From IMG/VR virus record IMGVR_UViG_3300043681_000019, positions 1 through 42,621 of that record: a stretch of DNA of 42,621 nucleotides; one strand, written 5' to 3'. The translations under genes were made by a program, and so were the position numbers. The DNA comes from a virus. Within the stretch, counting starts at the first letter, position 1. The number at the start of each line of letters is the position of its first letter. The notes under the pieces are model-generated. The model saw only the letters and a program-made list of their open reading frames with translations. It did no database searches and was not told the origin of the DNA. Shown here piece after piece: positions 1 through 42,621 of the stretch.

Positions 1-127
1 GATTGTGGCGGGCGAGGCGGACACGCGAAGCGTGTCGGCCGCCGCGGGCACGACGCCGAGCTGTAGTTGGACAGATACGGCGGTGAGCAGTTGGGCCGCC
101 GTCCTCGTCGCCTTCAAGGCGGCGGCC
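1..127. repeat. Terminal direct repeat, copy A (identical to 42495-42621)
   Basis: Base-by-base comparison of the two window ends shows 127/127 identity. Confidence 0.95.
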
Positions 128-10259: not shown

Positions 10260-13200
10260 ATGCCGCCCCAGACGCCCATCGTGCCAGTCGGGGGCATCAT
10301 GCCGCCCTCCCCGGCGATTGTCCCAATCGGCGGGACGATGCCCGAGACGGCGGTCGACACCGGTCCCCACATCGGCCCCGAGCCCCCCTGGTGGCGACGC
10401 GCTGCCGAAGCCGTGACGCGCGGCAGCGCGAACACGCTCGCCCACCAGATCGATGCCGCCACGACGTTCGCGAAGGACATCGGCGGGTTTGCGGAAAGCA
10501 CCGCCCGAATGGCGGTCAATCCCGCCACGGCCGCCGCCGAGATGACCGATGCCGAGGTGAATCGACTGTTCAATCTGGGGGTCCAAGGGCCACCTCCGGG
10601 CCAGAACCGGAGTGCACTCGAGTGGGTGCCTCTCGTCGGGCCCGTGGCCGCCGATACGGCGAATGCGATCCGCGAGGGTCGCCCGGGTCGCGCCGTCGGG
10701 CATGTGGCCGCCGTGGTCGCGCCGATGGCCGCCGAAGCCGGCCTCACTCGCGGCGTCGCGGCCTATCGTGCCGGAGCCCCCGCCCGCGCCGCCAGCGCGC
10801 GAGCGGGCCAAGTCGCGGACTTCGTCAAGAAGTACAAGCAAGCCCATCCGCCAAGCCCGGGCCATGCCTATACCGATGCGGAGCTGACGGCCACGATGCC
10901 GGCGCTCGCGGACGAGCATCGCGCCGCGACCATCACGACCACGCCGGACACGATTGCCGCGCAAACCCAAGCCGTCGGCAAAATCGAGGAGAACGTGCGA
11001 GGTCTCGTCGATGCGTTTCCGAACGAGACCGTGCAAGTGTCGATGCCGGACATCGAGCACGCCTTGGACACGGGCGCTCCAGGGCCGCGCACGCCCGGGA
11101 GCCGGGGCATGGGCACGCGCAGCACGGATGTCGCGACGGGCCTGAAGGCGATCGAGACGCTCGGCCTCGACCAACCGATGTCCTTGTCCGAACTCTACGA
11201 TCGCGTGTTGCGCCTCAATGCCGAACTGGCGAAAGAACTCGCCCAGAGCAAATACGATGTCGCGAAAATGCGGACGGCCGATCCGGAGTTCCGCGCGCTG
11301 GAACTGGCCGCCGATCATGCGAGGAATCTCGTCTGGGACCGCCTCGACCAGTTGGGCGTCAAGGGCGTGCGCCAGTTGCGGGAGATCGAAGCCGCGTTGA
11401 TTAAGACCCGCGGGGCGGCGCTCCGACACGAGTTTGCTGGCGAGACGATGGTGCGCCAACCCGGCGGGGATAGCGTCGGCCGGAGGATTGTGGCCCGGAT
11501 GCTGAAAACCGCAGGGTTGGGCACGGGCGCGCTCGTCGGCGGGGCCGTGGCCGGCGGGCCGGGTGCCGTCGGGGGCGCGGCGGTCGGCGGCGAACTCGGA
11601 GAAGTCGCCGCGGGGGCCGTGCGTGGCGCGCAGCCGCGGAACGTCATCGTCGAGCGCGCCATGCGGAATCTCGACGACATCCCGGGTATGCAGTTCCCCT
11701 CGTTGCCCGCCACGTCGTCGACCACACCGGGCGGGGCCGTGCCTGGCGGACCTGGCGGACCCGCCGCCGGCGGCCCTCCGGGCACGGGCGTCGGGCCAGC
11801 CTTCTGGCGCCCTGGGCCGAAACCCACCGTGACGATTCTGCCGCCCGACCAGTTGCCGTCGGGCACGGCACCTCTCGGCCTGCCGCCCGCGCGGCCACGT
11901 CAGTTGGGGCCCGCCGTGCGCCCGATGCCGTCTGGGGCGGAAGCGCCCGACTACCAAGCGCCGCCGATTCCACCGCAGCCACTTCCGAGGACGTGGGCGG
12001 AAGTCAAAGCCTTGCACGGCATCGATCCAGAGACCACGGCGACGCCTCAACTCCTGCTGGGCCCGGCCGTGCGCGAAATGCCTGCCGCCCCAACAGGCCA
12101 GGACTACCGCGCCCCACGGATCGCGCCGCAACCGCTCCCGACGACGTGGGAGGAAACCGGACGCTTTCACGGCGGCGATCCTGACTTGCGCGGTACGGAC
12201 CAGCGCCCGGACTACATCCGCGAAATTCTGAGCTTGCCGCCCGAGGAACAAGCCCTCGCGATTGCGGAACTCGAGCGCGGCACGCCACCGCCAGAGCCGC
12301 CCGCCGGGGCCCCACCCCCGTCGTCAGGCCCTCCACCGGCCCCGCAAGGCCCAGTGGGGCCGCTACCAGCGCCCGTCGTCGCCGAGCCGCCGACACTGCC
12401 CGCGCCAGCGGAAGCACCGCCCCCGCCGCCAGCCAGCACCGTGGCTCCGCTGCTGCCGCCCGAAAAGATACCGAGCACGAGCGGGGATCTGGTTGCCCAA
12501 GTGCAATCGAGTTTGATGAACAACGGATCGTCCGATCGTGGGATGGACTACTGGCGGCAACAGTTTGCCCAAGCCACGCCGGAGGCGTTGCAGGCGACCG
12601 CGACCTACCTGCAAGGGCCGACGGCCTCGTCCTGGCTCAAGCGATTCATGTTGCCAGAGGTGATGCAAGTTTTACGGGACCGCCGGGCTCAACCGTCCTT
12701 GCCCGGCGCCGAAGACGTGCGCGGCCAGGAAGTCACGCAGCCGACCCTTGACATCCCCGAGCAATCGTTCAATCTCTCGAGCCCTGATGAAACGCAGCCG
12801 AGCCAACCGATGCTCGGCGACGAGCCGCCGCCCGCGCCCGGGGCGCGGCAGATTGCCGCGAACGTGTCGGAAGTCGATCCGCGCAGCATCAAAGTCGATC
12901 CCGATCGGTTTCAATTCAAGAGCAATTTCGACCGCGTCGGCGTCGTGCCCGAATCGCGCATCAAAGGCAAGTGGAACGAGAACCTGTCTGGGATACTGCT
13001 CACGTGGATCGATCCGGTGGATGGCCAACGGTACGTCATCAACGGCCACAACCGGCTCGAGGCCGCCGTCAGCAAGAACGTGCCGCGCGTCATCATCCGC
13101 GACGTGGTTGCCACCGATGCCGCCGAGGCCCGCGCGTACGGCGCAATGGCCAACATCGCCGAAAACAACGGCTCTCCAGTCGATGCCGCCAAGGTCTTGC

Positions 13201-13898
13201 GCCACGCCACGGACCCAGTGGCGAAACTGAAAGAACTCGGCATCGACACCACGAAGCGCCTCGCTCGCGATGGCTTGGCGCTGGCGCACCTGTCCGATCC
13301 CCTGTTTCAACGGGTCGCGACCGGCGATCTCAACGAAGCCCTCGGGATCACGATCGGCGGGGCGGACCTCTCGCCGGAAAATCAGATGGCCGTCGTCCAG
13401 CTCGTGGAGCGGCAAGCGAAGAAGGGGAAGAAACTCACCCCCGAGGTCGTGGCCCATCTCATCGAAGACGTGCGGGATTCGCCCACGGTGGCCCATGCGT
13501 CGGAGCAGGGTAATATGTTCGCGGACTTGCTCGGAGAAGATCGGTCACAATCAGTGGCGATTGAACGGGCGCAAATTCGCGATTGGTTACAGACGACGCT
13601 CGAGAAAGACAAGCGGTTGTTCAAGTACGTCCAGCAGGGCGATCGCGCCGCCCGGCTCGCGGCGGAAGGCAACGTGATCAACGCCCAGGCGAATGTGGCG
13701 AAGGCGCAGGAATCGGCGACGATTGCGGAACTCGTGAAGAAACTCGCGAATGCGAAAGGCCCCATCAATGACGCCATCACGACGGCCGCCGTCCGCACTG
13801 CGAACGGGGAAGACATCAGCGCCATCCGCGCCAAGCTCCTCGAACAAGTCAAGCGCGCCCTCGAATTTGAACTCGGCGGTGGGGCGGGCCCTCAATAG
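10260..13898 (+). CDS. Giant multidomain virion protein (1212 aa) with a C-terminal ParB/Srx-like domain
   Basis: Stop-start abutment at 10257-10262 (TAGATG). ParB-N-like block at about 12860-13210: VDPRSIKVDPDRFQFK ... YVINGHNRLEAAVSKNVPRVIIRDV ... AMANIAENNGSPVDAAKVL. Also a Gly-rich hydrophobic stretch and a roughly 260-aa Pro-rich linker. Confidence 0.8.
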   Translation: MPPQTPIVPVGGIMPPSPAIVPIGGTMPETAVDTGPHIGPEPPWWRRAAEAVTRGSANTLAHQIDAATTFAKDIGGFAESTARMAVNPATAAAEMTDAEVNRLFNLGVQGPPPGQNRSALEWVPLVGPVAADTANAIREGRPGRAVGHVAAVVAPMAAEAGLTRGVAAYRAGAPARAASARAGQVADFVKKYKQAHPPSPGHAYTDAELTATMPALADEHRAATITTTPDTIAAQTQAVGKIEENVRGLVDAFPNETVQVSMPDIEHALDTGAPGPRTPGSRGMGTRSTDVATGLKAIETLGLDQPMSLSELYDRVLRLNAELAKELAQSKYDVAKMRTADPEFRALELAADHARNLVWDRLDQLGVKGVRQLREIEAALIKTRGAALRHEFAGETMVRQPGGDSVGRRIVARMLKTAGLGTGALVGGAVAGGPGAVGGAAVGGELGEVAAGAVRGAQPRNVIVERAMRNLDDIPGMQFPSLPATSSTTPGGAVPGGPGGPAAGGPPGTGVGPAFWRPGPKPTVTILPPDQLPSGTAPLGLPPARPRQLGPAVRPMPSGAEAPDYQAPPIPPQPLPRTWAEVKALHGIDPETTATPQLLLGPAVREMPAAPTGQDYRAPRIAPQPLPTTWEETGRFHGGDPDLRGTDQRPDYIREILSLPPEEQALAIAELERGTPPPEPPAGAPPPSSGPPPAPQGPVGPLPAPVVAEPPTLPAPAEAPPPPPASTVAPLLPPEKIPSTSGDLVAQVQSSLMNNGSSDRGMDYWRQQFAQATPEALQATATYLQGPTASSWLKRFMLPEVMQVLRDRRAQPSLPGAEDVRGQEVTQPTLDIPEQSFNLSSPDETQPSQPMLGDEPPPAPGARQIAANVSEVDPRSIKVDPDRFQFKSNFDRVGVVPESRIKGKWNENLSGILLTWIDPVDGQRYVINGHNRLEAAVSKNVPRVIIRDVVATDAAEARAYGAMANIAENNGSPVDAAKVLRHATDPVAKLKELGIDTTKRLARDGLALAHLSDPLFQRVATGDLNEALGITIGGADLSPENQMAVVQLVERQAKKGKKLTPEVVAHLIEDVRDSPTVAHASEQGNMFADLLGEDRSQSVAIERAQIRDWLQTTLEKDKRLFKYVQQGDRAARLAAEGNVINAQANVAKAQESATIAELVKKLANAKGPINDAITTAAVRTANGEDISAIRAKLLEQVKRALEFELGGGAGPQ

Positions 13899-23670: not shown

Positions 23671-23879
23671 CAGCCCGGGAGAAGTTTCACATTGGCCAAC
23701 CTGTGACGCTGACCGCGGAGGCGATCCAGCGAAAAATCTCCCGTCACGTCGAGCACGGCGTCGTGGTCGGTTTCGGCGACCGATCGACGCTCGTGTGGAT
23801 TCAGCGGGAGGGGCGCAAGTCCCGGGAGAGCTATCACATGGATTTTTGGGAACCGGACGCACGCCGGGACACGGTATGA
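23667..23879 (+). CDS. Hypothetical protein (70 aa)
   Basis: ATGA overlaps at 23667 and 23876. Normal composition. Confidence 0.55.
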   Translation: MTAREKFHIGQPVTLTAEAIQRKISRHVEHGVVVGFGDRSTLVWIQREGRKSRESYHMDFWEPDARRDTV

Positions 23880-25045
23880 GCCTGATTCGCGCTGATGCTC
23901 GCTCGCTCCCGATCGCTGATGGCGTCGTGAACTGCTGCGTCACGTCGCCGCCGTACTTCGGACTCCGCGATTACGGAACCGCGACATGGGACGGTGGCGA
24001 CCCAGACTGCGCGCACACGGGCCGCTTGAAGCCACAGCGGGATACGCACGGGCAAGGCGTGAGCAAGGGCCGATTTTCCGACACCAGAGGGACGCAACCA
24101 GCGAAGCGAGCCACAACTATCCCGGTACGCGAGGTGTGTCGGTGTGGCGCTCGCCGGATCGATCGGCAGATTGGCGTGGAGGCCTCTCCGGATGCGTACG
24201 TTGCGGCACTGGTCGCCGTCTTCCGAGAAGTGCGGCGAGTGCTCACTGACGACGGTACGTGCTGGGTCAATCTCGGGGACTCCCACAACAACAGCGACAA
24301 GTGGGGCGGTGGCTCCTCAAGCGTCGGCAAGCACAAGCGCCTCGGAGGCGAACAGCCTTCAGCGGGCGTCCGCCGTCGCTGGCGTGGCATAGAAGGCACG
24401 AAGTCGAAAGACTTGTTGATGATTCCGGCAATCGTCGCGCTGGCGCTGCGGACTGATGGGTGGTACTTGCGCTCGGACATCATCTGGGCAAAGCCGAACC
24501 CGATGCCGGAATCGGTGACGGACCGGCCGACCAAGTCTCACGAGCACCTGTTCCTACTCACGAAGTCGGCGAAGTATTACTACGACGCGAAGGCTATCAG
24601 CGAACCGTGTGCTGGACTGAACCTCCATGACATCACCGGTTCTAGCTATGTTGCACCAGGGCAGACGCCGCACACCGGGACACGACGCAGTGGCAACACG
24701 ACGCGTGTGTTGGGGAATGAACGTGGGCGGCCTAGCTCGCACCTCGGTGCCAGTATCCCCTGGGAAGGCACCACCCGAAACAAGCGCGACGTGTGGACCG
24801 TGCCGACGCAGCCGTATATGGGCGCCCACTTCGCCACGATGCCTGAAGCGTTAGTAGAACCGTGCATTCTTGCCGGCGCTCCTATCGGTGGGTTAGTGCT
24901 CGATCCGTTCTGCGGGAGTGGGACGGTGCTGGCCGTCGCGGAGCGATTGAGTCGCCGGAGTGTTGGGACGGACCTAAACTATCAAGGCTTGGCGGCCGAG
25001 CGCATCGCACAGCGCGGACTGATGTTTGAGGAGGCCGTGTCGTGA
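23876..25045 (+). CDS. Orphan beta-class DNA methyltransferase (N4-C or N6-A; 389 aa)
   Basis: Motif IV TSPPY lies near the N-terminus and motif I LDPFCGSGT near the C-terminus. Also IIWAKPNPMPESV and TKSHEHLFLLTKS. No partner endonuclease is present. Confidence 0.9.
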   Translation: MSLIRADARSLPIADGVVNCCVTSPPYFGLRDYGTATWDGGDPDCAHTGRLKPQRDTHGQGVSKGRFSDTRGTQPAKRATTIPVREVCRCGARRIDRQIGVEASPDAYVAALVAVFREVRRVLTDDGTCWVNLGDSHNNSDKWGGGSSSVGKHKRLGGEQPSAGVRRRWRGIEGTKSKDLLMIPAIVALALRTDGWYLRSDIIWAKPNPMPESVTDRPTKSHEHLFLLTKSAKYYYDAKAISEPCAGLNLHDITGSSYVAPGQTPHTGTRRSGNTTRVLGNERGRPSSHLGASIPWEGTTRNKRDVWTVPTQPYMGAHFATMPEALVEPCILAGAPIGGLVLDPFCGSGTVLAVAERLSRRSVGTDLNYQGLAAERIAQRGLMFEEAVS

Positions 25046-27139: not shown

Positions 27140-27561
27140 GCCTGATCCGATCCTGCGTGGTCGTCCTTCTCGCTGTCGTCACGATCGCGTGCGGCGATAC
27201 GGTGATCAACCTGCCCACCAATCCATCGGCCACCACGAACGCGACGACGACGCCCACGGTCGTGCATCACACGATCGTGTTCCGCGTGCTGGGGAATACG
27301 ACCAGTGCGCGCGTGCGGTATTCGACGCCGCTCGATGGCTTGGGGCAAGTGGTGACCTCGCTCCCGTACTTCAACAGCCTCTCGACGACGGGGGACAGCA
27401 TGTTCCTCTCGCTCGAGGCGACGCCGATCAGTTATGGCTTCGGCATCCTCTATCCCTTCTTGAGCGTGCAGATCGTCGTCGACAATACCGTCTTCAGAGA
27501 AGCCACCACTCAAGACTTCACGCTCGCCCCGCTGGCCGTCAGTGGGCAATGGCGACAGTAA
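27136..27561 (+). CDS. Putative lipoprotein (141 aa)
   Basis: MSLIRSCVVVLLAVVTIAC looks like a signal peptide with a lipobox-like TIAC. Thr-rich linker. Confidence 0.6.
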   Translation: MSLIRSCVVVLLAVVTIACGDTVINLPTNPSATTNATTTPTVVHHTIVFRVLGNTTSARVRYSTPLDGLGQVVTSLPYFNSLSTTGDSMFLSLEATPISYGFGILYPFLSVQIVVDNTVFREATTQDFTLAPLAVSGQWRQ

Positions 27562-27586
27562 CCCGTCCGCCCAGATTGGAGGTTCG

Positions 27587-27802
27587 ATGACGCTCGCCCT
27601 GCTGCCGTCGCTGCTGCTCGCGGTGCAACCGCTCATGACACCGGATGTCGTCCGGCTGCTGGTCGTGATCGTGATTCTCGGTGTCTGTTTGTGGCTGATT
27701 CAAACCTACGTGCCAATGGCCGCGCCGCTCAAAACGCTGCTCACGATCGTGGTCGTCCTCGTGATCGTGCTGTGGCTCCTCCGCACGTTCGCGCTGATTT
27801 GA
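27587..27802 (+). CDS. Small two/three-TM membrane protein (71 aa), holin candidate
   Basis: GGAGG at 27577-27581. Contains LLVVIVILGVCLWLIQTYVPMAAPLKTLLTIVVVLVIVLWLLRTF, which resembles Thivi_2564-type small membrane proteins (from memory). Confidence 0.65.
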   Translation: MTLALLPSLLLAVQPLMTPDVVRLLVVIVILGVCLWLIQTYVPMAAPLKTLLTIVVVLVIVLWLLRTFALI

Positions 27803-27803
27803 C

Positions 27804-27887
27804 GTGGCCATCCGTGGGCCCGAGCAACGCGGGCTCGTGCTGTTGATCGTGGTGACGCTGGTCTTGCTGTGGCTGGCAGCCCGGTAA
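27804..27887 (+). CDS. Possible 27-aa single-TM peptide
   Basis: The GTG lies 1 nt after the upstream stop. Translation: VAIRGPEQRGLVLLIVVTLVLLWLAAR. Confidence 0.25.
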   Translation: MAIRGPEQRGLVLLIVVTLVLLWLAAR

Positions 27888-27889
27888 AT

Positions 27890-28180
27890 CTAGCGTCGGC
27901 CCGACCAGTAGTCGGGGCGGCGTTTGGCGTGCATGACGGCGACGATCCGAATCCGATCGGCGTGGGCTCGGTACAGGAGCGCATAGGGGAAGTGCGCGCA
28001 GAGTCGCCGGCGAATGGTGCCCCGCACGATGGGACCGGCGCGTGGATACTCCACGATCGCGTCCACCGTGCGTCGCACGTCCGCTAAAAACTCACGAGAG
28101 AGATCAGTCTGTTCCGCGTTGTAGTACAGGACCGCGTCGGTGGTTTCGCGGGTGGCGCGTCGATCAAACGTGACGATCAC
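27890..28180 (-). CDS. ParE/RelE-family type II toxin (96 aa from GTG 28180)
   Basis: FLADVRRTVDAIVEYPRAGPIV.GTIRRRLCAHFPYALLYRAHADRIRIVAVMHAKRRP. Overlaps the antitoxin stop by 17 nt. Confidence 0.8.
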   Translation of the reverse strand: MIVTFDRRATRETTDAVLYYNAEQTDLSREFLADVRRTVDAIVEYPRAGPIVRGTIRRRLCAHFPYALLYRAHADRIRIVAVMHAKRRPDYWSGRR

Positions 28181-28400
28181 GCAGCAACGCCTCCATCTCT
28201 CGGAACACGTCTTCGGCAGGAATGCCCTCGGCCGTGCCGGCGTCCATTTCATCCGCGCGCCGTTCGGCTTCCTCGGCCCAGAGGCGCAGGTGTTCCTCGG
28301 GCGACAGTTCATCCAGACTTTCGATCAGCCGGTGCGCCAGGCGCGCCCGGCCTGAGAGATCCAGTTGCAACGCCGCGGCTTCAAGTTCATCAATCAGCAT
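28164..28400 (-). CDS. Addiction-module antitoxin (Unstab_antitox-like, 78 aa)
   Basis: AGGAGG lies 10 nt upstream of the ATG. Contains LQLDLSGRARLAHRLIESLDE...LWAEEAERRADEMDAG. Confidence 0.8.
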   Translation of the reverse strand: MLIDELEAAALQLDLSGRARLAHRLIESLDELSPEEHLRLWAEEAERRADEMDAGTAEGIPAEDVFREMEALLRDRHV

Positions 28401-28416
28401 AACCGTGGGCCTCCTG

Positions 28417-28593
28417 TTAGGTCGTCTCGTCGGCGACGGGCCGGTACTTCTTCGGGCGCCGTTGCGGGACCGTCGGCGCCGTGCGCCAGTATGGCGACTT
28501 ACACTTCGCGCAGCATTTCGGCATGGGCGCGGTCAACGGCCGCCGGACCCACTGATGCCCGCACCGGTGGCACTGACAGACCGTCACCTTCAT
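28417..28593 (-). CDS. Zn-ribbon protein (58 aa; below the track cutoff)
   Basis: MKVTVCQCHRCGHQWVRRPLTAPMPKCCAKCKSPYWRTAP..., with two CxxC pairs. Directly upstream of the TA pair. Confidence 0.5.
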   Translation of the reverse strand: MKVTVCQCHRCGHQWVRRPLTAPMPKCCAKCKSPYWRTAPTVPQRRPKKYRPVADETT

Positions 28594-28742
28594 AGACCAC
28601 TATCCTATACCGGCCCGCGATCCCTTCGCGCGAAGCGTCATCCACACGTCATACACGAGCGCCCCGTACGCGCCCTTTCCTAATACCTTGTCCATCGACG
28701 CTTCCACGGTCAGCCCCTGCGGGCAGTGTCTCAGTTTGAAAT

Positions 28743-28895
28743 TCAGTTTGCCTGTTTGCGCAAACTTTCTGAATCGACGCCGAAGAATTGAGCAAGCGCC
28801 TTTGCAGATTGAGACACTACCCCCCCCTGCGCATGCAGTGCCAGAATTCGCGCGCTGATCATCGCGGCTTTCTCTGTTGTGATGTGTGTGGTCAT
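28743..28895 (-). CDS. Small possible HTH protein (50 aa; below the track cutoff)
   Basis: GGAGGA lies 11 nt upstream of the ATG. Translation: MTTHITTEKAAMISARILALHAQGGVVSQSAKALAQFFGVDSESLRKQAN. Contains a C8/G8 run at 28820-28827. Confidence 0.4.
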   Translation of the reverse strand: MTTHITTEKAAMISARILALHAQGGVVSQSAKALAQFFGVDSESLRKQAN

Positions 28896-28897
28896 GG

Positions 28898-29306
28898 TTA
28901 GAAGTCCTCCGGAAACCCGATCGTCACGCCGTCCCCATCGGCCACTGCCAGCAGTCGCACGCGCGCGCGCCCCACCTTGACCGAGACCGGCGCCCGGTTC
29001 TCACCCCGCGGGAACGCCCCACGCAGCGCCAGGGACGCCATCCAGAGCACGTCATGCGCCCGTCCGCGGGTGTTGCCACTGCGTGACGTGCCCTCGACCT
29101 GTACGGCTGCCCACAGCGCCCGCGTGAACACCACCGGCACGCGGAACCCGCCCAAGAACCCTTTGTCCGCGCTCGCCCGCCTGCGCGCGTGTGTAGGCCG
29201 AGATCACCTCCGCCTCGCCCCAGAACCCCTCCAGCCCCAAATCCTTCCCGGTCTTGATCGTCGTCGTCATATCTGTGCTGTCCCCTTGTGTCTTGGGAGT
29301 GCTCAT
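28898..29306 (-). pseudogene. Frameshifted gene: N-terminal part in the frame of track ORF 29052..29354, C-terminal part in the frame of 28898..29155
   Basis: Both halves look protein-like (MTTTIKTGKDLGLEGFWGEAEVISAYTRAQA / DKGFLGGFRVPVVFTRALW...HDVLWMASLALRG...VTIGFPEDF). They join with a 1-nt shift near 29165-29180. Each frame degenerates into Arg/Gly junk beyond that point. Confidence 0.55.
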
Positions 29307-29366
29307 GCCCTCCGCGCGGTCCTGGAGCCCGCACCAGCTCGAGGACCGACGCAAGGCAGGAACCCG

Positions 29367-29669
29367 CTAGGCCGCTTGCGCCTGGGCCGCTTCGTATTCC
29401 GCGAACGCGGCCAAGATGGCCTCGCGCAGCCGGTCTTGCGCGGCCTGGTCTTCACACGGCCGGAGCAGCGCGAACGACCGCCGCTCGCCATTGATGGAGT
29501 ACTGCCGGGCCGGAAACGTCACGTTCCGTCCGCCGCTCCGTCGTTCCCAAATCGCGAAGCCGACCAACTTGAGGCCATCGAACGGCCCGCCCGTGAATCG
29601 CAGCTCCGCATCAGCCAGCTTGCCGACTGGCGATTTCTCATTGGGGAGGAAATGGAACGTCATGGTCAT
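29367..29669 (-). CDS. SpoVG-like nucleic-acid-binding protein (100 aa)
   Basis: LADAELRFTGGPFDGLKLVGFAIWERRSGGRNVTFPARQYSINGERRSFALLRP...DRLREAILAAF resembles the SpoVG fold pattern. Confidence 0.55.
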   Translation of the reverse strand: MTMTFHFLPNEKSPVGKLADAELRFTGGPFDGLKLVGFAIWERRSGGRNVTFPARQYSINGERRSFALLRPCEDQAAQDRLREAILAAFAEYEAAQAQAA

Positions 29670-29750
29670 GGTGTGGTGTCCTGGTGTGCGACGTGCTCTC
29701 GGGCATCGCGTCCGGCGGGGCCCGACATGGGCCCGGCGAAGATTGAAAAG

Positions 29751-30101
29751 CTAGAAGAGGGACGATTGACGCGGCTGGGTTTCCGCCGGCGCCGTCAAGG
29801 TGAACGACTGCGCCGGCAACGCGAACTGTGGCAGCGCGAGTTCGAGCCCACGTACGTGTTCCGCGCCCGGGAGTGCCGGCCATGTGTCGGCCTCGGTCAA
29901 GCGAATCTGGCCTGCCCACCGTTCGACCCGCACGGCATCCGACATCGGCACGCTATCGACCAAGCCAAAGAGCCCGTATTCCGTCCACGCTTGCCCGACC
30001 ACCCACCGATGGCCGCCAGGCGTGTTCGCCCGCACAATCCACCGGTCGCTTTGCGCCATCATGAGCCACCGGTCCGCGTTCGCCGTCGTCGAATTCGTCA
30101 T
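29751..30101 (-). CDS. Hypothetical protein (116 aa), first gene of the accessory operon
   Basis: The internal ATG (30101) of track ORF 29751..30245 lies exactly 6 nt downstream of a consensus -10 element. Trp-rich, normal composition. Confidence 0.6.
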   Translation of the reverse strand: MTNSTTANADRWLMMAQSDRWIVRANTPGGHRWVVGQAWTEYGLFGLVDSVPMSDAVRVERWAGQIRLTEADTWPALPGAEHVRGLELALPQFALPAQSFTLTAPAETQPRQSSLF

Positions 30102-30107
30102 GCCGAA

Positions 30108-30136
30108 ATCATAAACCACTGGTATATGATTGTCAA
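30108..30136 (-). promoter_or_regulatory. Consensus promoter TTGACA-17-TATGAT (minus strand) with an overlapping 23-bp dyad
   Basis: rc(30131-30136) is TTGACA, the spacer is 17 nt, and rc(30108-30113) is TATGAT. The ATG follows 6 nt later. ATCATAAACCA-C-TGGTATATGAT (30108-30130) is a 10/11 + 10/11 palindrome. Confidence 0.6.
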
Positions 30137-30404
30137 GCGTCCCGTGTATCCATTCGCTGCATATGCCCCAGGAGAGTGGAAAAAATTGTGCATACGTGAT
30201 ACTTCGATGCCGCAACACGCTCGGCCCGCTCTTGTTCAGATCCACATCCCCACGCGCTCACGTCGGGACGGCGTGCCGCCCACGACACGCCCCCGCTCCG
30301 GTCTCGACGCCAGGAGGGCGACACGTCGCCCGTCTCGGAACCGGAGAAAAACCCAGCGCGACGCGAAAACATTGGAGCCCGCCGGTGGTATCCTGCGGTT
30401 CGTG

Positions 30405-30638
30405 ATGACTGAACATTCCGACCCCCTCGTTTCTCCGGTTGCTTCGTCAGATTCTGCGGAATTTGCGCGGTATGTGGGCGATGGCGTGTACGTGAAACGC
30501 ACCCCGTCGCATGTTGTCTTGACCACGTCGAACGGCAGCGAGACCACGAACACGATTTACTTGGAAGCTGAGGTCGTGCGCGCGTTGCGGGCCTGGTTCC
30601 GTCACGTCATCGACCACGAACGCGGCGACGCGGAGTAG
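30405..30638 (+). CDS. Hypothetical protein (77 aa; the only credible part of track ORF 28977..30638)
   Basis: MTEHSDPLVSPVASSDSAEFARYVGDGVYVKRTPSHVVLTTSNGSETTNTIYLEAEVVRALRAWF has normal composition. Immediately upstream of terS. Confidence 0.5.
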   Translation: MTEHSDPLVSPVASSDSAEFARYVGDGVYVKRTPSHVVLTTSNGSETTNTIYLEAEVVRALRAWFRHVIDHERGDAE

Positions 30639-30641
30639 GCC

Positions 30642-31055
30642 GTGCCGACGTACGACCAGTGCTCGACGCCCGTGAATCGCCGTGCGGACATTGCGCGCGC
30701 GAATGGGAAGTTGGGCGGTCGGCCTCGCGGCTCCAAGAATCGCAAGACGTTGATTCGTGAACGGGCGGAGCAGCTTATCGAGGACAAGCGACTCGAGTTC
30801 AACCAGGCCGTGGCCGAGAAGGCGAGAGCGTTGCTCGACCGGCAGGTGGAAATCACGCAGCAGAGCGAGAACTACAGCGCGGCCAACAGCGCCATCGACT
30901 CGTTGCTTGACAGAGCGTTCGGGCGCCCGTCGCCGAGACTGGAACAGGTGAGTACCCTCGGTCGTGAACCCGTGACGATTGTGAACGTCTACGCGCCTGG
31001 GACCGAACCGCACGTGGTGAAGCTGCTCAACGGGCGGATTGTCGACACCCCATGA
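30642..31055 (+). CDS. terS: Putative small terminase subunit / DNA-binding protein (137 aa)
   Basis: NGKLGGRPRGSKNRKT motif followed by a helical region. Located upstream of terL. Confidence 0.55.
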   Translation: MPTYDQCSTPVNRRADIARANGKLGGRPRGSKNRKTLIRERAEQLIEDKRLEFNQAVAEKARALLDRQVEITQQSENYSAANSAIDSLLDRAFGRPSPRLEQVSTLGREPVTIVNVYAPGTEPHVVKLLNGRIVDTP

Positions 31056-31222: not shown

Positions 31223-32677
31223 ATGCCGCGGGCGGAACTGCACTGGAACCCGCTGCAATCGACGGCGCTGCAAGCGACGCACCGGTTTGTCGACTTGGAA
31301 GGCGGCATCCGCGCGGGCAAGACAACCCCCCTTGTCGCCAAGCCGGCGGACTTGGCCATCCGATACCCCGGGATTCACTGCTTCCTCGGACGGTGGACGG
31401 ATGACGCGGTGTCAGCTCAGTTGCGGCCGGCGTGGCGCGACTATGCCGCCAAGGTGGGACTCGAGCTGTACTGGCATGGGGACGAGCAGTACGACGAGGT
31501 CATCGGGACCGGCTCGCGGGTGTACTTGCGCGGGCTGCGGGCGAGTGAGGACAGTAACCGGTACGGGAAGTTCCGGGGGCTCACCCTCGCATGGATTGGC
31601 ATCGACCAGGCCGAAGAGGTGCCGCACGATGTGTTCCTGGAACTCGCCGGCCGCTTGTCGCAGCCAGGCTATCCGCATCAACTCTGGTTGACGCCGCAGC
31701 CCGTGATCCCAGACCACTGGATAGCGAAGACGTTCCCGGAAGACAATCCGTACCCCGACCATCTGTACCTGCGGACCAACGTGTACGACAACGTCGCGAA
31801 CGTCGGCCAGGCGTACGTCGATTCGCTCGAAGCCTTGTACCCGTTGGGGTCGTCACAACGACGCACGTTGCTGGAAGGCCGACGGGGCCTTGCGGGACGA
31901 GGCGAGCCGGTGTATGCGGGGTACTTCGACCGACAGCGGCACGTGCGGCCCGTGGAGCTGTCCTTGCGGGTGCCGCTGATTGAGTCGTGGGACTGGGGGC
32001 ATGGGCATCCGTGCGTGTCGTGGTCGCAGTTCTGGCCGGTCGGGGCGTACGTGCAGCTCGGGGCCGTGATGGGGCAAGCGATGTTCCTCGAAGACTTCGT
32101 GCCGGCGGCCTTGCAGTATCGGCAGCAATGGTGCCCGCGGCCGCTGACCATCCATGCGACGGGGGACCCGGCGGGGTTGGATGTGACCAATCAGGGCACG
32201 AAAGTCTCGAAGGTGCGAGAAGTGTTGGCCTCGCATGGCGTGACACCGACGGCCATCGCGTCGATGAACACGCCGGAGATGCGGTACGACTCGATTCAGG
32301 CGACGGGCGGGTACATGCGGCGCATCGCGCTCGATGGGGAACCGGCGTTTCGGGTCAATCCGCGGTGTGTGGTGTTGACGGGAGACGGGGCGGAAGATGC
32401 CAGCTTTACCGTCGATGGGTACGAGGGCGGGTACGTGTGGTCGGATATCGTGTTGCGCGGGCGGCAGACGTTTCGGGTGCCGAAGAAGGACGGGTACTAC
32501 GACCATTTTCAGAACACGAACGAGTACGCGGTGTTGATGCACGGGCCGGGACTGGTGACGCAGGAGACGCTCGCGCGAGTGGAGCGGCGGGAGGAGCGGC
32601 GGCGGATGCAGGACCGGGACCCGGCGGATGTACGGGAGCGGCGACGTGAGGGGATGCGGCATCGGGTGGGGCGATGA
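31223..32677 (+). CDS. terL: Terminase large subunit (484 aa)
   Basis: Walker A GGIRAGKT and Walker B-like LAWIGIDQAEE. The C-terminal nuclease half contains SWDWGHGHP and ATGDPAG. Confidence 0.9.
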   Translation: MPRAELHWNPLQSTALQATHRFVDLEGGIRAGKTTPLVAKPADLAIRYPGIHCFLGRWTDDAVSAQLRPAWRDYAAKVGLELYWHGDEQYDEVIGTGSRVYLRGLRASEDSNRYGKFRGLTLAWIGIDQAEEVPHDVFLELAGRLSQPGYPHQLWLTPQPVIPDHWIAKTFPEDNPYPDHLYLRTNVYDNVANVGQAYVDSLEALYPLGSSQRRTLLEGRRGLAGRGEPVYAGYFDRQRHVRPVELSLRVPLIESWDWGHGHPCVSWSQFWPVGAYVQLGAVMGQAMFLEDFVPAALQYRQQWCPRPLTIHATGDPAGLDVTNQGTKVSKVREVLASHGVTPTAIASMNTPEMRYDSIQATGGYMRRIALDGEPAFRVNPRCVVLTGDGAEDASFTVDGYEGGYVWSDIVLRGRQTFRVPKKDGYYDHFQNTNEYAVLMHGPGLVTQETLARVERREERRRMQDRDPADVRERRREGMRHRVGR

Positions 32678-33932: not shown

Positions 33933-34343
33933 TTACTTCGGTTCCGGCCTCGGCTCGGTCGGCAACGTGTGGTCCGGATAGCCCTGGTCGGGAGAACCCG
34001 GCAGCGTGTGGTCGGGCACCAGAATCAACCCCAAGCACGCCAGCCACTTCACGATGTACTTCCGCCCCGGCACAATCGGGAGCTGCGCCGCGTACGGCGG
34101 CAGGCTGTTGTCCGGCTTCTCGGTCGGGTCGTACGGAAACACCGGCAACTGCACCGCCTGCCCGCCCCCCGGCAACTGAATCGGATGGGTCGGCGTGCCC
34201 CCTCCCCCGCCAAAGACCGGCAACTGCCCGGCACTCGGGGGCGGTAGGTAAATCGGCGGCATGGGATACGGGCCACCGCCGGGCAGGCTGTTGTCGACCT
34301 GTCCTCCATCAAGAAACGTGATTACGGCTAATCGTGAGGCCAT
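33933..34343 (-). CDS. Reverse-oriented Pro-rich repeat protein (136 aa)
   Basis: AGGAG lies 9 nt upstream of ATG 34343. Recurrent DNSLP / DHTLP / QLPVF motifs. Confidence 0.6.
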   Translation of the reverse strand: MASRLAVITFLDGGQVDNSLPGGGPYPMPPIYLPPPSAGQLPVFGGGGGTPTHPIQLPGGGQAVQLPVFPYDPTEKPDNSLPPYAAQLPIVPGRKYIVKWLACLGLILVPDHTLPGSPDQGYPDHTLPTEPRPEPK

Positions 34344-41976: not shown

Positions 41977-42621
41977 ATGGCGATCACCGTCGTGCAAGGC
42001 ACGCCGAAAGCGACCGGAGGCAGCGGGCCGAGTATTGCCTGCGTGTTTGCGACACCTCCCGTCGTGGCCCACGGCATCATCGTGTTCGTGAACGTGTGGC
42101 GGAACACGGGGCTGCCTGTGCCCGACGGCTGTACCGACAATTTCGGCAATACGTACGTGCGGGTGAGCACGCAGGCGAACGCGCAAGGGGCCACGGCGCT
42201 GTTCTACTGCGCGGCCGTCGTGGCGACGGGGGCGAGCTTCACGGTGACGGTGACGAGTACCACGGCGAGTTTCTGGGTCGCGAAGGCGGTCGAATGTAGC
42301 GGCGGCCTCGTGGTGGATCAGTTCGTCGGCGCGACCGGGGTGAGTGCCACGCCTGCGACAGGGCCGACGGCCGCGTTGACGGGTACGGACGTGCTGCAAT
42401 CGGCCTGTCACGTCATCTTGGGGTCACACACGTCGATCACGGTAGGCATCGTCACGCCTCCGTGGGTGCAAGAGTTTGAGGAGTTGCCGTCAACGATTGT
42501 GGCGGGCGAGGCGGACACGCGAAGCGTGTCGGCCGCCGCGGGCACGACGCCGAGCTGTAGTTGGACAGATACGGCGGTGAGCAGTTGGGCCGCCGTCCTC
42601 GTCGCCTTCAAGGCGGCGGCC
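41977..42621 (+). CDS. Tail fibre / receptor-binding protein, N-terminal part (runs off the window end and continues at 1..1240)
   Basis: ATG at 41977 with no stop before 42621 (translated by hand). In frame with 5..1240 through the repeat. The combined unique length is 1758 nt, or 585 aa. Confidence 0.75.
   Translation, partial: MAITVVQGTPKATGGSGPSIACVFATPPVVAHGIIVFVNVWRNTGLPVPDGCTDNFGNTYVRVSTQANAQGATALFYCAAVVATGASFTVTVTSTTASFWVAKAVECSGGLVVDQFVGATGVSATPATGPTAALTGTDVLQSACHVILGSHTSITVGIVTPPWVQEFEELPSTIVAGEADTRSVSAAAGTTPSCSWTDTAVSSWAAVLVAFKAAA
42495..42621. repeat. Terminal direct repeat, copy B (identical to 1-127)
   Basis: Same comparison. The length equals a typical maximum assembler k-mer, which suggests a circular-closure overlap. 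Confidence 0.95.

What the first reader, a model, noticed from the sequence alone, without database searches (positions are those of the whole stretch)
27890..30136. Reverse-oriented accessory operon behind a consensus promoter: candidate prophage-expressed defence or exclusion island
Seven or eight small genes run antisense to everything around them, between the membrane-protein genes and the packaging genes. That position is a classic moron or defence hotspot. In order they are: an unknown Trp-rich 116-aa protein, a SpoVG-like nucleic-acid binder, a frameshifted gene, a 50-aa possible HTH protein, a possible 31-aa peptide (28600-28695), a double-CxxC Zn-ribbon protein, and an Unstab_antitox/ParE-RelE toxin-antitoxin pair. 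Genes are tightly spaced and share one strong promoter (TTGACA-17-TATGAT) overlapped by a dyad operator. That arrangement suggests expression from the lysogen, independent of the lytic programme. Only the TA pair has a recognisable family. The combination SpoVG-like + Zn-ribbon + TA + unknowns matches no defence or anti-defense system I know. The operon may therefore act as one abortive-infection or superinfection-exclusion unit.
Basis: partly seen in the sequence, partly recalled or inferred. Interest (0 to 1): 0.7.

Follow-up and report, generated by a model that had tools for sequence, protein, structure and literature searches.

The report
Mosaic accessory island in temperate phage
The backward-facing cluster of small genes is real, but closely related phages carry quite different genes in the same slot. 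It is best read as an exchangeable set of independent accessory genes under one repressible promoter (a toxin-antitoxin pair, a captured host-type regulator and a dead gene among them), not as one new defence machine.

Summary
The window is a complete circular temperate-phage genome. At 27890-30136 it has a minus-strand gene array behind an 11/12 sigma-70 promoter, and a unique 25-bp palindrome overlaps that promoter. The first ATG lies 6 nt after the -10, so the mRNA is predicted to be leaderless.

The "one defence unit" interpretation is not supported. Three close relatives (TerL 74-96% identical) keep only a frame:
- the promoter/operator up to ATG-ACG;
- a protein ending in a conserved 44-aa tail (Q-x-S/T/D-L-F-COOH, close to a beta-clamp-binding motif);
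- a 58-aa zinc-ribbon gene, seen in two relatives (the third contig ends first).

Everything else is swapped. The SpoVG-like gene, DUF6573, the 50-aa HTH and the ParE pair are absent from the relatives. Their homologues elsewhere occur without the other operon genes.

The "frameshifted gene" is a DUF6573 pseudogene with a ~34-nt deletion of its most conserved motif. The 31-aa peptide has no support.

The "SpoVG-like" protein fails Pfam SpoVG, but its model best matches phage SpoVG folds. It belongs to an unannotated, highly conserved Acidobacteriota family encoded beside ftsZ.

PADLOC finds no known defence system. Only the Unstab_antitox/ParE pair is a confident family member.

Verdict: a hypervariable accessory hotspot with a conserved regulatory frame. 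Interest is moderate.

The parts
30108..30136 (-). Near-consensus sigma-70 promoter: TTGACA (30136-30131), 17-nt spacer, TATGAT (30113-30108). Only 6 nt separate the -10 from the ATG, so a leaderless transcript is predicted.
   Evidence: (11/12, the only minus-strand hit). The promoter is conserved in L125, L050 and L014, where the block runs through ATG-ACG and then diverges.
30107..30131 (.). 25-bp palindromic operator candidate, AATCATAAACCA-C-TGGTATATGATT, filling the spacer and overlapping the -10.
   Evidence: I11, 92% complementary. (unique in the window, 0/100 shuffles). Near-identical in L125 (1 change). The outer arms are kept in L050. Two copies occur in sister phage L014.
30137..30260 (.). 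Conserved non-coding block upstream of the promoter, containing TATGCA repeats and a partial dyad. Its role is unknown: extra regulatory sites or packaging-related DNA.
   Evidence: About 70% identity with L050 and L125 over roughly 120-200 nt. No Rfam family matches.
29751..30101 (-). Gene A (116 aa). It has a rare small alpha/beta core (aa 20-69) and a conserved C-terminal tail module of about 44 aa (aa 73-116, nt 29754-29885) ending QSSLF-COOH.
   Evidence: GC3 0.80. Only 9 relatives among 1.84 billion representatives. The core is shared with P0008/P0009 and the tail with P0010 and P0130-P0134 and with the L014 213-aa protein. AF2 gives no secondary structure in the tail. The motif background is about 0.1% of ORF ends.
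29367..29669 (-). SpoVG-fold-like 100-aa protein. It is a phage copy of a highly conserved, unannotated Acidobacteriota family.
   Evidence: More than 8000 homologues at about 70-78% identity, none with a Pfam domain. It keeps all 42 invariant family positions. The chromosomal copy lies between the ftsZ-side radical-SAM gene and a PF02578 gene. AF2 pLDDT is 83. The two best BFVD matches are phage SpoVG proteins, TM 0.61 and 0.55. Pfam SpoVG and PDB Foldseek are negative.
28898..29270 (-). DUF6573 pseudogene. The N-part is in one frame (ATG 29270) and the C-part in another (to stop 28898). The junction is near 29178-29180, where about 34 nt encoding the conserved 'xADGVLVDVSEW' motif are missing.
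   Evidence: The halves hit PF20213 profile positions 4-25 and 40-88. Intact homologues in L036-L038 show the missing segment. An independently assembled Logan contig of the same genome is 100% identical across the junction.
28743..28895 (-). 50-aa HTH-like ORFan. It starts 2 nt after the preceding stop, with a GGAGG about 10 nt upstream.
   Evidence: Called by the JGI and Logan pipelines. There is only a weak Put_DNA-bind_N hit at E 0.16. GC3 is 0.55. No relatives in IMG/VR.
28417..28593 (-). 58-aa CxxC...CxxC zinc-ribbon protein with a basic tail. It is a conserved element of the island frame.
   Evidence: GC3 0.88. It is 93% identical in L125 and 79% in L014, with differences by codon position of 3/3/17 and 11/10/20. 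The C-x-x-C-G-H-x-W...CAKCKSPYW motif occurs in 22 IMG/VR loci. No curated family matches.
28164..28400 (-). Antitoxin (Unstab_antitox / TIGR02574-like, 78 aa), with an AGGAGG ribosome-binding site.
   Evidence: PF09720, 47.8 bits against a cutoff of 23.3, full profile. TIGR02574 at 1.4e-5.
27890..28180 (-). ParE/RelE-superfamily toxin (96 aa, GTG start overlapping the antitoxin by 17 nt).
   Evidence: PF05016, 32.8 bits against a cutoff of 23, profile positions 1-88 of 89. phrog_2455 at 1.1e-6. The Logan gene call gives the same 96-aa product.
12687..12818 (+). Paralogous internal copy of the tail module inside the 1212-aa late protein (aa about 810-853). It lies just before that protein's C-terminal domain and lacks the terminal LF.
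   Evidence: tblastn hit at E 7e-13. Translation. Identity by codon position is 27/33/19 of 44, which indicates protein-level selection. The C-domain hits phrog_21 and phrog_10691.

Best explanation
This is a hypervariable accessory-gene (moron-type) island of a temperate phage, probably a phage of Acidobacteriota. It is built as a conserved frame holding exchangeable, independently acting cassettes.

Shown. The frame has three parts:
(1) a near-consensus sigma-70 promoter whose spacer and -10 are occupied by a 25-bp palindrome;
(2) a protein with a variable N-domain and a conserved 44-aa C-terminal tail;
(3) a 58-aa zinc-ribbon protein.

In this genome the cargo between and after these anchors is a captured SpoVG-fold nucleic-acid-binding protein, a dead DUF6573 gene, a small HTH ORFan and a terminal Unstab_antitox/ParE pair.

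Inferred.
- A dimeric repressor, not identified and not the phage CI, sits on the palindrome. When it is absent, RNA polymerase makes a leaderless polycistronic mRNA that is independent of the + strand lytic transcripts.
- Protein A docks on a host partner through its tail. That partner is most likely the beta sliding clamp, because the tail ends in Q-x-(S/T/D)-L-F-COOH.
- The SpoVG-fold protein mimics or competes with the host's own ftsZ-linked copy.
- The ParE pair acts on its own as an addiction or abortive-infection module (ParE-family toxins poison DNA gyrase; established family knowledge).

The genes do not form one machine. The conserved anchors also serve as homology points for swapping cassettes between related phages.

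Timing. I lean towards expression outside the late lytic programme, either in the lysogen or at establishment. This was not tested.
For: Gene and promoter anatomy.

Frame conserved while cargo is swapped:
- L125 (TerL 95.7% identical) has the same promoter/operator, a tail protein as first gene and the Zn-ribbon at 93%. Its other genes (DUF932, PIN-like, DUF2283, unknowns) are unrelated to this window's cargo.
- Sister phage L014/L039 (TerL 80%) shares only the operator (two copies), the tail and the Zn-ribbon.
- L050 (TerL 74%) shares the promoter/operator and the tail.
- In the 4-way alignment, conservation runs through ATG-ACG and then stops.

Independence of the cargo:
- SpoVG-like homologues stand alone in 6 phage contigs and in chromosomes.
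- DUF6573 homologues stand alone in 3 phage contigs.
- ParE and the HTH ORFan have no IMG/VR relatives.

Pseudogene.

Selection on the frame parts:
- Zn-ribbon differences by codon position are 3/3/17.
- The tail paralogue shows most change at the third codon position.
- The tail motif is conserved in 7 of 8 C-terminal tails, against a background of about 0.1% of ORF ends.
- AF2 predicts no secondary structure in the tail.

Clamp-binding motif consensus is QL[SD]LF (PMC9690074). Phage Mu MuC motifs QHDLF and QPDLF, which differ from the consensus only at position 2, bind the clamp experimentally (PMC12867686).

The operator is unique in the genome, so it does not belong to the cI/cro region.
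Against: - No expression data exist, so promoter use, leaderless initiation and timing are all inferred from sequence.
- No terminator-like site closes the array, and no internal promoter was found. A single transcription unit is therefore assumed, not shown.
- The repressor is unidentified.
- The clamp-binding reading rests on a 5-residue motif. Position 2 is S/T/P rather than L, and the internal paralogue in the 1212-aa protein lacks the LF. The 35 residues upstream of the motif must therefore have another role.
- Only three relatives share the frame, and they are all from metagenomes.
- Variable cargo at a conserved slot is also what a true defence hotspot looks like, so individual cassettes could still be defence genes.
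Confidence: 0.62

Rival explanations
1. The whole operon is one co-functional, lysogen-expressed abortive-infection or superinfection-exclusion system, made of SpoVG-like, Zn-ribbon, TA and unknown components.
For: There is one strong promoter with an operator. The array sits in a hypervariable slot like known prophage defence hotspots (PMC9122126). It includes a TA pair. No other function is assigned.
Against: The gene set does not travel together. The closest relatives keep the promoter but replace the cargo. SpoVG-like and DUF6573 homologues occur without the others. One member is a deletion pseudogene. PADLOC gives no hits here or in the relatives' cargo.
Confidence: 0.07
2. The island is an establishment or anti-defence locus. 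It is fired immediately on DNA entry and then shut off by the palindrome-binding repressor, like plasmid leading-region genes. It would not be a lysogen-expressed defence.
For: In the sister phage a second operator copy lies in the intergenic region upstream of a divergently oriented ArdC-N anti-restriction gene (ArdC function in PMC7213743). The relatives' cargo includes DUF932, and this phage has (dead) DUF6573; from my own knowledge both families occur around anti-restriction genes of mobile elements. A strong consensus promoter plus a tight operator fits a burst-then-repress pattern.
Against: A ParE TA pair needs continuous antitoxin supply, which fits steady expression better. No repressor gene is conserved inside the island. 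The anti-restriction link of DUF932 and DUF6573 is from memory; no paper on DUF6573 was found. ArdC in the sister phage appears frameshifted.
Confidence: 0.2
3. The conserved tail of protein A is not a clamp-binding peptide. It is a docking or virion-incorporation tag recognised by a phage partner. This would explain why the same module sits inside the 1212-aa late (probably virion or ejection) protein.
For: An internal paralogue with protein-level conservation lies at a domain boundary of the 1212-aa late protein. About 35 conserved residues lie upstream of the QxSLF end, more than a clamp motif needs.
Against: The terminal Q-x-S/T/D-L-F is the most invariant part of the free tails, and it is exactly what the internal copy lacks. 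The tail genes sit in the reverse array, not in the late operon.
Confidence: 0.2
4. The region is mostly decaying junk: remnants of past insertions with little present function.
For: It contains a DUF6573 pseudogene, an ORFan HTH with atypical GC3, an unsupported peptide ORF, and gaps of 81-149 nt.
Against: The promoter/operator is conserved across four phages. The Zn-ribbon and the tail are under purifying selection. The SpoVG-like copy keeps all 42 invariant family residues. The TA pair has full-length profile matches.
Confidence: 0.06

Closest known systems
Morons of lambdoid phages (for example lambda bor and lom, HK97 gene 15). The comparison is from my own knowledge of the literature.
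   Same: Extra genes with their own sigma-70 promoter lie between blocks of essential phage genes. They are often oriented against late transcription and vary among close relatives. Lambda bor occupies the equivalent slot between the lysis and packaging genes.
   Different: Here it is a multi-gene array of about 2.2 kb. The promoter/operator, a tail-bearing protein and a Zn-ribbon gene are conserved, and cassettes are swapped between them. No flanking terminator was found. The first gene is predicted to be leaderless.
[quoted passage not shown]
   Same: Conserved flanks with completely different cargo in near-identical phages.
   Different: No cargo gene here or in the relatives matches a known defence system. 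Some neighbouring cargo is of the anti-restriction type (ArdC-N). The hosts are probably Acidobacteriota, not enterobacteria.
ParDE-type type II toxin-antitoxin modules (PF05016 toxin with a PF09720/TIGR02574 antitoxin)
   Same: Both proteins pass the Pfam thresholds over their full length. The antitoxin comes first, the genes overlap, and each has a good ribosome-binding site.
   Different: The pair sits at the 3' end of a longer array with no recognisable promoter or operator of its own. It is absent from all relatives. L125 has a PIN-like gene at the same position.
SpoVG (PF04026), a DNA/RNA-binding regulator of Firmicutes and others; phage-encoded SpoVG homologues
   Same: The order of secondary-structure elements is the same (six strands then a long C-terminal helix). 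The two best BFVD structural matches are phage SpoVG proteins, TM 0.61 and 0.55, probability at least 0.99.
   Different: No sequence-profile match to Pfam SpoVG for any of 26 family members, even at E <= 10. hhalign against B. subtilis SpoVG is negative. There is no Foldseek match to the solved SpoVG structures, although they are in the PDB sequence set searched. It defines a separate, unannotated family that is conserved at 70-78% identity and encoded beside ftsZ in Acidobacteriota.
Clamp-binding phage proteins such as Mu MuC/Mor (PMC12867686), and the bacterial clamp-binding motif QL[SD]LF (PMC9690074)
   Same: The tails carry terminal pentapeptides QSSLF, QTSLF, QTTLF, QTDLF and QPSLL. Most differ from the consensus only at position 2, as do the validated MuC motifs QHDLF and QPDLF. 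They lie at or near the extreme C-terminus of a tail in which AF2 predicts no secondary structure.
   Different: There is no homology to MuC/Mor. The motif ends a longer conserved 44-aa module that also occurs, without the LF, inside a late protein. Binding is untested.

Membership tests
Type II TA, ParE toxin (PF05016) with Unstab_antitox antitoxin (PF09720) | The toxin matches the ParE/RelE profile above the curated threshold over its full length. | tested here: met
   32.8 bits against a cutoff of 23, profile positions 1-88 of 89. phrog_2455 at 1.1e-6.
Type II TA, ParE toxin (PF05016) with Unstab_antitox antitoxin (PF09720) | A small antitoxin gene lies immediately upstream and is translationally linked. 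| tested here: met
   PF09720 at 47.8 bits against a cutoff of 23.3. The genes overlap by 17 nt, and a GGAGG precedes the toxin's GTG start.
Type II TA, ParE toxin (PF05016) with Unstab_antitox antitoxin (PF09720) | The pair has its own autoregulated promoter and operator. | tested here: not met
   No promoter-like site upstream of the pair. Only 16 nt separate it from the Zn-ribbon gene.
Type II TA, ParE toxin (PF05016) with Unstab_antitox antitoxin (PF09720) | The toxin arrests growth (gyrase poisoning) and the antitoxin neutralises it. | not testable with these tools
   Needs expression experiments.
SpoVG (PF04026) | Sequence-profile match to the SpoVG family. | tested here: not met
   No PF04026 hit at E <= 1 for the protein, or at E <= 10 for 26 family members. 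hhalign against 2ia9-type SpoVG gives probability 0.2. No NCBIfam hit.
SpoVG (PF04026) | SpoVG fold. | tested here: inconclusive
   The top two BFVD hits are phage SpoVG proteins (TM 0.61 and 0.55, probability 1.00 and 0.99, but E 0.02 and 0.08). No PDB hit at or below E = 1, although 2ia9, 2i9x and 2i9z are in the PDB sequence set.
SpoVG (PF04026) | Binds DNA or RNA. | not testable with these tools
   Needs EMSA or CLIP.
DUF6573 (PF20213) | Profile match above the gathering score. | tested here: not met
   The halves score 12.8 and 14.8 bits. Homology to intact phage members is clear by tblastn (41-52% identity, E to 6e-33).
DUF6573 (PF20213) | Intact reading frame including the conserved DGVLVDVSEW core. 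| tested here: not met
   About 34 nt are missing and the frame is shifted.
Known anti-phage defence systems (PADLOC-DB v2) | At least one signature protein matches a defence-system model. | tested here: not met
   There are 0 credible hits for the 9 products; the best is ParE against HEC-02B at E 0.036. The relatives' cargo gives only a weak JukA hit at 8e-4 on a miscalled ORF.
Moron / accessory hotspot island | Own promoter, independent of the flanking phage operons. | tested here: met
   11/12 consensus promoter, conserved in 4 phages.
Moron / accessory hotspot island | Present, absent or replaced among otherwise closely related phages. | tested here: met
   L125, L014/L039 and L050.
Moron / accessory hotspot island | A terminator closes the unit. 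| tested here: not met
   No minus-strand terminator-like site in 27400-30700.
Moron / accessory hotspot island | Expressed from the repressed prophage. | not testable with these tools
   Needs a lysogen transcriptome.
Beta-clamp-binding proteins (terminal QL[SD]LF-type motif) | A near-consensus pentapeptide at a terminus, conserved among homologues. | tested here: met
   Q-x-[STD]-L-[FL] occurs in 7 of 8 C-terminal tails, and 5 of them end exactly at LF. Only 8 of 883 control ORFs carry the motif in their last 12 residues, and by my count about 7 of those 8 are the tail proteins themselves.
Beta-clamp-binding proteins (terminal QL[SD]LF-type motif) | Physical binding to DnaN through the motif. 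| not testable with these tools
   Needs two-hybrid or ITC assays, or a complex prediction. The single-chain predictor here cannot do it.

The most novel reading that the evidence does not exclude
Phages of this group carry a dedicated cassette-array platform. It has a repressible, leaderless promoter, followed by 'tail-tagged' adaptor proteins. Their interchangeable N-domains would be delivered to the host beta sliding clamp (or to a shared phage partner) by a conserved 44-aa C-terminal module. The platform is closed by a conserved zinc-ribbon protein. One cassette is a hijacked copy of a previously unrecognised, near-universal Acidobacteriota SpoVG-fold protein encoded beside ftsZ. That would point to phage manipulation of host replication or division.
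Probability: 0.2. Interest if true: 0.65.

Novelty: new variant of a known kind. Interest (0 to 1): 0.42.

Why it matters
If this reading is right, the locus is a compact example from poorly studied, probably acidobacterial, phages. It shows how accessory genes are exchanged: conserved anchors (promoter/operator, a tail module, a zinc-ribbon gene) with free replacement of what lies between them.

It also flags three unannotated protein families worth testing:
- a rare tail module with a near-consensus clamp-binding end;
- a widespread phage zinc-ribbon family (CAKCKSPYW) that gene callers miss;
- a highly conserved SpoVG-fold family next to ftsZ in Acidobacteriota, which phages repeatedly capture.

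It does not provide a new multi-gene defence system.

Tried and rejected
- GenBank phages: no DNA match to the island, and only distant TerL matches.
- GTDB genome scan with TerL: no prophage relative, so the host could not be named directly.
- Metagenome TerL scan: the extra relatives (TerL 56% or less) share no island gene and no operator.
- IMG/VR pattern scan for the promoter/operator: 50 hits, none in a contig above 50% GC and none with extended similarity, so I treat them as chance.
- Zn-ribbon protein as the operator-binding autoregulator: palindromes upstream of its homologues in 17 other phage loci are inconsistent. Only L019 has a similar one. This is left as an open idea.
- Operator shared with the cI/cro region: no similar site there.
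- Divergent promoter hidden in the palindrome: the -35 on the + strand is poor (read from the sequence).
- Known RNA families in the region: none.
- Hairpin after gene A as a terminator: z-score -0.56, no T-run, and conserved only in the closest relative.
- A tail conserved as a DNA element: rejected, because the third codon position is the most diverged.
- Programmed frameshift or sequencing error in DUF6573: rejected, because about 11 codons plus 1 nt are missing relative to intact homologues, and a separate Logan assembly of the same genome is identical across the junction.
- AF2 model of gene A: pLDDT 58, too poor for a fold search.
- Profile search of the SpoVG-like family against PDB sequences: only a chance hit.
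- Word-index homologue search with the Zn-ribbon: 2 hits only, because the gene is rarely called.
- Papers on DUF6573: none found.

Full report
**What the window is.** The 42,621-nt window carries a 127-nt terminal direct repeat. A Logan assembly (L001, a contig of 42,524 nt) is 100% identical but circularly permuted. The window is therefore a complete circular assembly of a temperate phage genome, not an integrated prophage.
- A tyrosine integrase and a cI/cro-like pair lie at 14.3-16.8 kb.
- RecT/YqaJ-type early genes follow on the + strand.
- TerL is at 31223 and the portal gene at 34566. Late and tail genes wrap round to 13.9 kb.
- GC content is about 65%.
- No GenBank phage is close.

**Check of the observation.**
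- GC3 and a frame plot support coding for gene A (0.80), the SpoVG-like gene (0.80), the Zn-ribbon (0.88), the antitoxin and ParE. They also show a frame switch near 29175 inside the "frameshifted gene".
- The promoter TTGACA-17-TATGAT (30136-30108) is an 11/12 match. It is the only minus-strand promoter-like site in the region and the best within 18 kb.
- The dyad is a 25-bp near-perfect palindrome at 30107-30131. It is unique in the genome, and 0 of 100 shuffles reproduce it.
- Only 6 nt separate the -10 from the ATG of gene A, and there is no Shine-Dalgarno sequence. The transcript is therefore predicted to be leaderless (read). The upstream GTG start chosen by the JGI caller lies inside the promoter.
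- Pfam confirms the TA pair above threshold: PF09720 at 1.5e-12 and PF05016 at 1e-7.
- PADLOC finds nothing.

Weak points of the observation:
- The 31/35-aa ORF has no comparative support.
- Three intergenic gaps are 81-149 nt.
- The 50-aa HTH-like ORF has atypical GC3 (0.55) and no relatives anywhere.

**The frameshifted gene.** Its two halves hit DUF6573 profile positions 4-25 and 40-88. Intact homologues in three IMG/VR contigs read ...AYTR(A/E)xA-(I/L/V)A(D/E)G(V/E)LVDV(S/T)(E/K)WAS...GGF(R/K/L)VPV. The window reads AYTRAQA directly joined, one base out of frame, to (W)ASADKGFLGGFRVPV. About 34 nt encoding the most conserved motif are missing. This is a deletion pseudogene, not a sequencing error or a programmed shift. 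A separately assembled Logan contig of the same genome (L001) is 100% identical across the junction.

**The SpoVG-like gene.**
- It has more than 8000 homologues of about 99 aa at 70-78% identity, and none carries a Pfam domain. Several are named as coming from Acidobacteriota genomes.
- On a 3.9-Mb contig the gene sits at the end of the division cluster, in the order murC-ftsQ-ftsA-ftsZ-radical SAM-[this gene]-PF02578, near rpoD and dnaG.
- The phage copy keeps all 42 invariant family positions.
- Sequence-level membership of SpoVG fails. Pfam finds nothing even at E <= 10 for 26 members, hhalign is negative and NCBIfam finds nothing.
- A confident AF2 model (pLDDT 83) has six strands followed by a long helix. 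Foldseek finds no PDB match. In BFVD, however, the two best matches are phage SpoVG proteins, with TM 0.61 and 0.55 and probability at least 0.99.
- I therefore call it SpoVG-fold-like and not a SpoVG family member.
- Six other high-GC phage contigs carry a copy. None has any other gene of this operon nearby, and most copies are co-oriented with their neighbours.

**Gene A.**
- Only nine relatives exist among 1.84 billion representative proteins.
- The protein is a mosaic. A 50-aa core is shared with P0008 and P0009.
- A 44-aa C-terminal tail is shared with proteins whose N-domains are unrelated: P0010, P0130-P0134 and a 213-aa protein of the sister phage.
- The tail pattern is (L/I)P(GA/TL)E-VR--E(V/I/L)--P-F-LP---FTLTAP-ET----Q(S/T/P)(S/T/D)L(F/L).
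- Seven of the eight C-terminal tails carry Q-x-[STD]-L-[FL], and five end exactly at LF.
- Only 8 of 883 GC3-supported control ORFs have this motif in their last 12 residues. By my count about seven of those eight are the tail proteins themselves.
- AF2 gives a low-confidence small alpha/beta core and no secondary structure in the tail.
- The pentapeptides match the bacterial clamp-binding consensus QL[SD]LF except at position 2 (PMC9690074). The same is true of the experimentally validated MuC motifs QHDLF and QPDLF of phage Mu (PMC12867686).
- A paralogous copy of the module lies inside the 1212-aa late protein at 12687-12818, just before its C-terminal domain. It lacks the terminal LF.
- Between the two copies, the third codon position has diverged most (27/33/19 identities of 44). 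The conservation is therefore at the protein level.

**Comparative anatomy.** Three relatives could be recovered, and they settle the main question.
- **L125/L126** (TerL 95.7% identical) has a promoter/operator that differs at one operator position and the same 6-nt gap to ATG-ACG. Its first gene is a tail protein (P0130). Then come about 4.5 kb of unrelated genes (DUF932 and several unknowns), the Zn-ribbon at 93% identity, a PIN-like gene, one more unknown gene and DUF2283.
- **Sister phage L014/L039/L102** (TerL 80%, portal 83%) has the island one gene to the left of its position in the window, between the lipoprotein-like and membrane-protein genes. It has two operator copies, one in the intergenic region upstream of a divergent ArdC-N gene. 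It also has a tail protein and the Zn-ribbon at 79%. It has no TA, SpoVG-like, DUF6573 or HTH gene.
- **L050** (TerL 74%) has the promoter with the outer operator arms, about 150 nt of conserved upstream DNA, and a tail protein as third gene. Its contig ends soon after.
- In the four-way alignment, conservation runs through the start codon and the Thr codon and then stops.
- More distant relatives (TerL 56% or less) share nothing in this slot.
- The Zn-ribbon is a real gene. Differences by codon position are 3/3/17 against L125. Its C-x-x-C-G-H-x-W...CAKCKSPYW signature occurs in 22 IMG/VR loci. No curated family covers it.

**Interpretation.**
- The locus is a hypervariable accessory slot of the kind known from lambdoid morons and from P2/P4 hotspots (PMC9122126). 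What is unusual is its frame of promoter/operator, tail-bearing protein and Zn-ribbon, with the cargo replaced in between.
- The cargo genes of this genome have independent histories, and one of them is dead. The array is therefore not one machine.
- The TA pair is a self-contained module added after the Zn-ribbon. L125 carries a PIN-like gene in that position.
- The operator is not related to the cI/cro intergenic region. The repressor is unknown. It could be host-encoded or the conserved Zn-ribbon protein, but a survey of other Zn-ribbon loci gave no consistent palindrome.
- Whether the array is on in lysogens or fires at establishment cannot be decided from sequence. The TA pair favours steady expression. 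The ArdC-linked operator in the sister phage favours an entry burst.

**Verdict.**
- Observation: confirmed, with minor corrections.
- Interpretation: partly supported. It is an accessory hotspot with its own repressible promoter and a TA pair, but it is not a co-inherited functional unit and there is no evidence of defence.
- Novelty: a new variant of a known kind.
- Interest: moderate. It rests mainly on the tail module with its clamp-binding-like end, on the conserved cassette frame, and on the unannotated SpoVG-fold family.

Noticed in passing
window 1-127 and 42495-42621: A 127-nt terminal direct repeat. An independent Logan contig (42,524 nt) is 100% identical but permuted. The window is therefore a complete circular phage genome, not a prophage in a chromosome.
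   Followed up: yes
window 12687-12818 (+), inside ORF 10260-13898: The 1212-aa late protein contains an internal paralogue of the gene-A tail module at a domain boundary. Its C-terminal 340 aa hit phrog_21 ('portal protein', 1362-aa profile) and phrog_10691 (3925-aa profile). It has no Pfam or PDB match.
   Followed up: partly
L013 6001-6300 (3.9-Mb ENA/NCBI contig) and more than 8000 database proteins: The SpoVG-fold-like 99-aa protein is a highly conserved, unannotated Acidobacteriota chromosomal gene. It is encoded next to the ftsQ-ftsA-ftsZ cluster, near rpoD and dnaG. At least 6 other phage contigs carry copies.
   Followed up: partly
window 28417-28593 (-); L014 4001-4177; L125 7056-7229: The JGI and Logan gene callers skipped the 58-aa zinc-ribbon gene. 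In L125 a 206-aa 'PIN' ORF was instead called across it in another frame. The family (CAKCKSPYW motif) is common in IMG/VR contigs but nearly absent from protein databases (2 hits).
   Followed up: yes
window 30137-30473: The 340-nt non-coding stretch between the reverse promoter and the first packaging-side gene is conserved in relatives. It holds TATGCA repeats, a TATGCA-N5-TGGATA dyad (perfect in L050) and 3-4 CTCCGGT/AACCGGAG repeats. It could hold extra operators or a pac/cos-type site.
   Followed up: partly
window 27804-27887 (+): A 27-aa ORF with a hydrophobic helix and GC3 0.86 directly follows the 71/86-aa membrane-protein gene. It may be a real small membrane peptide. The membrane-protein gene itself is on the other side of the island in the sister phage and was not found in the 12.3 kb of L125 examined.
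   Followed up: no
L014 1347-2386 (-): The sister phage carries an ArdC N-terminal-domain (anti-restriction) gene divergent from its reverse array. The gene appears split over two frames. A second copy of the palindromic operator lies in the intergenic region upstream of it.
   Followed up: partly
window 23876-25045 (+): An orphan N6/N4 DNA methyltransferase (PF01555) lies among the early genes, next to HNH and DUF4326 genes. This may be self-protection against restriction.
   Followed up: no
window 33933-34262 (-): A second isolated minus-strand ORF (109 aa, Pro/Gly-rich, good codon score) lies among the + strand packaging and head genes. It may be another single-gene moron.
   Followed up: no
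L009 3900-4000: The gene for P0009, which shares the gene-A core, is preceded by a promoter of the same design but with a different operator: TTGACA, then a palindrome (TAGGCTCA-T-TGAGCCTA) in the spacer, then TATGCT.
   Followed up: no
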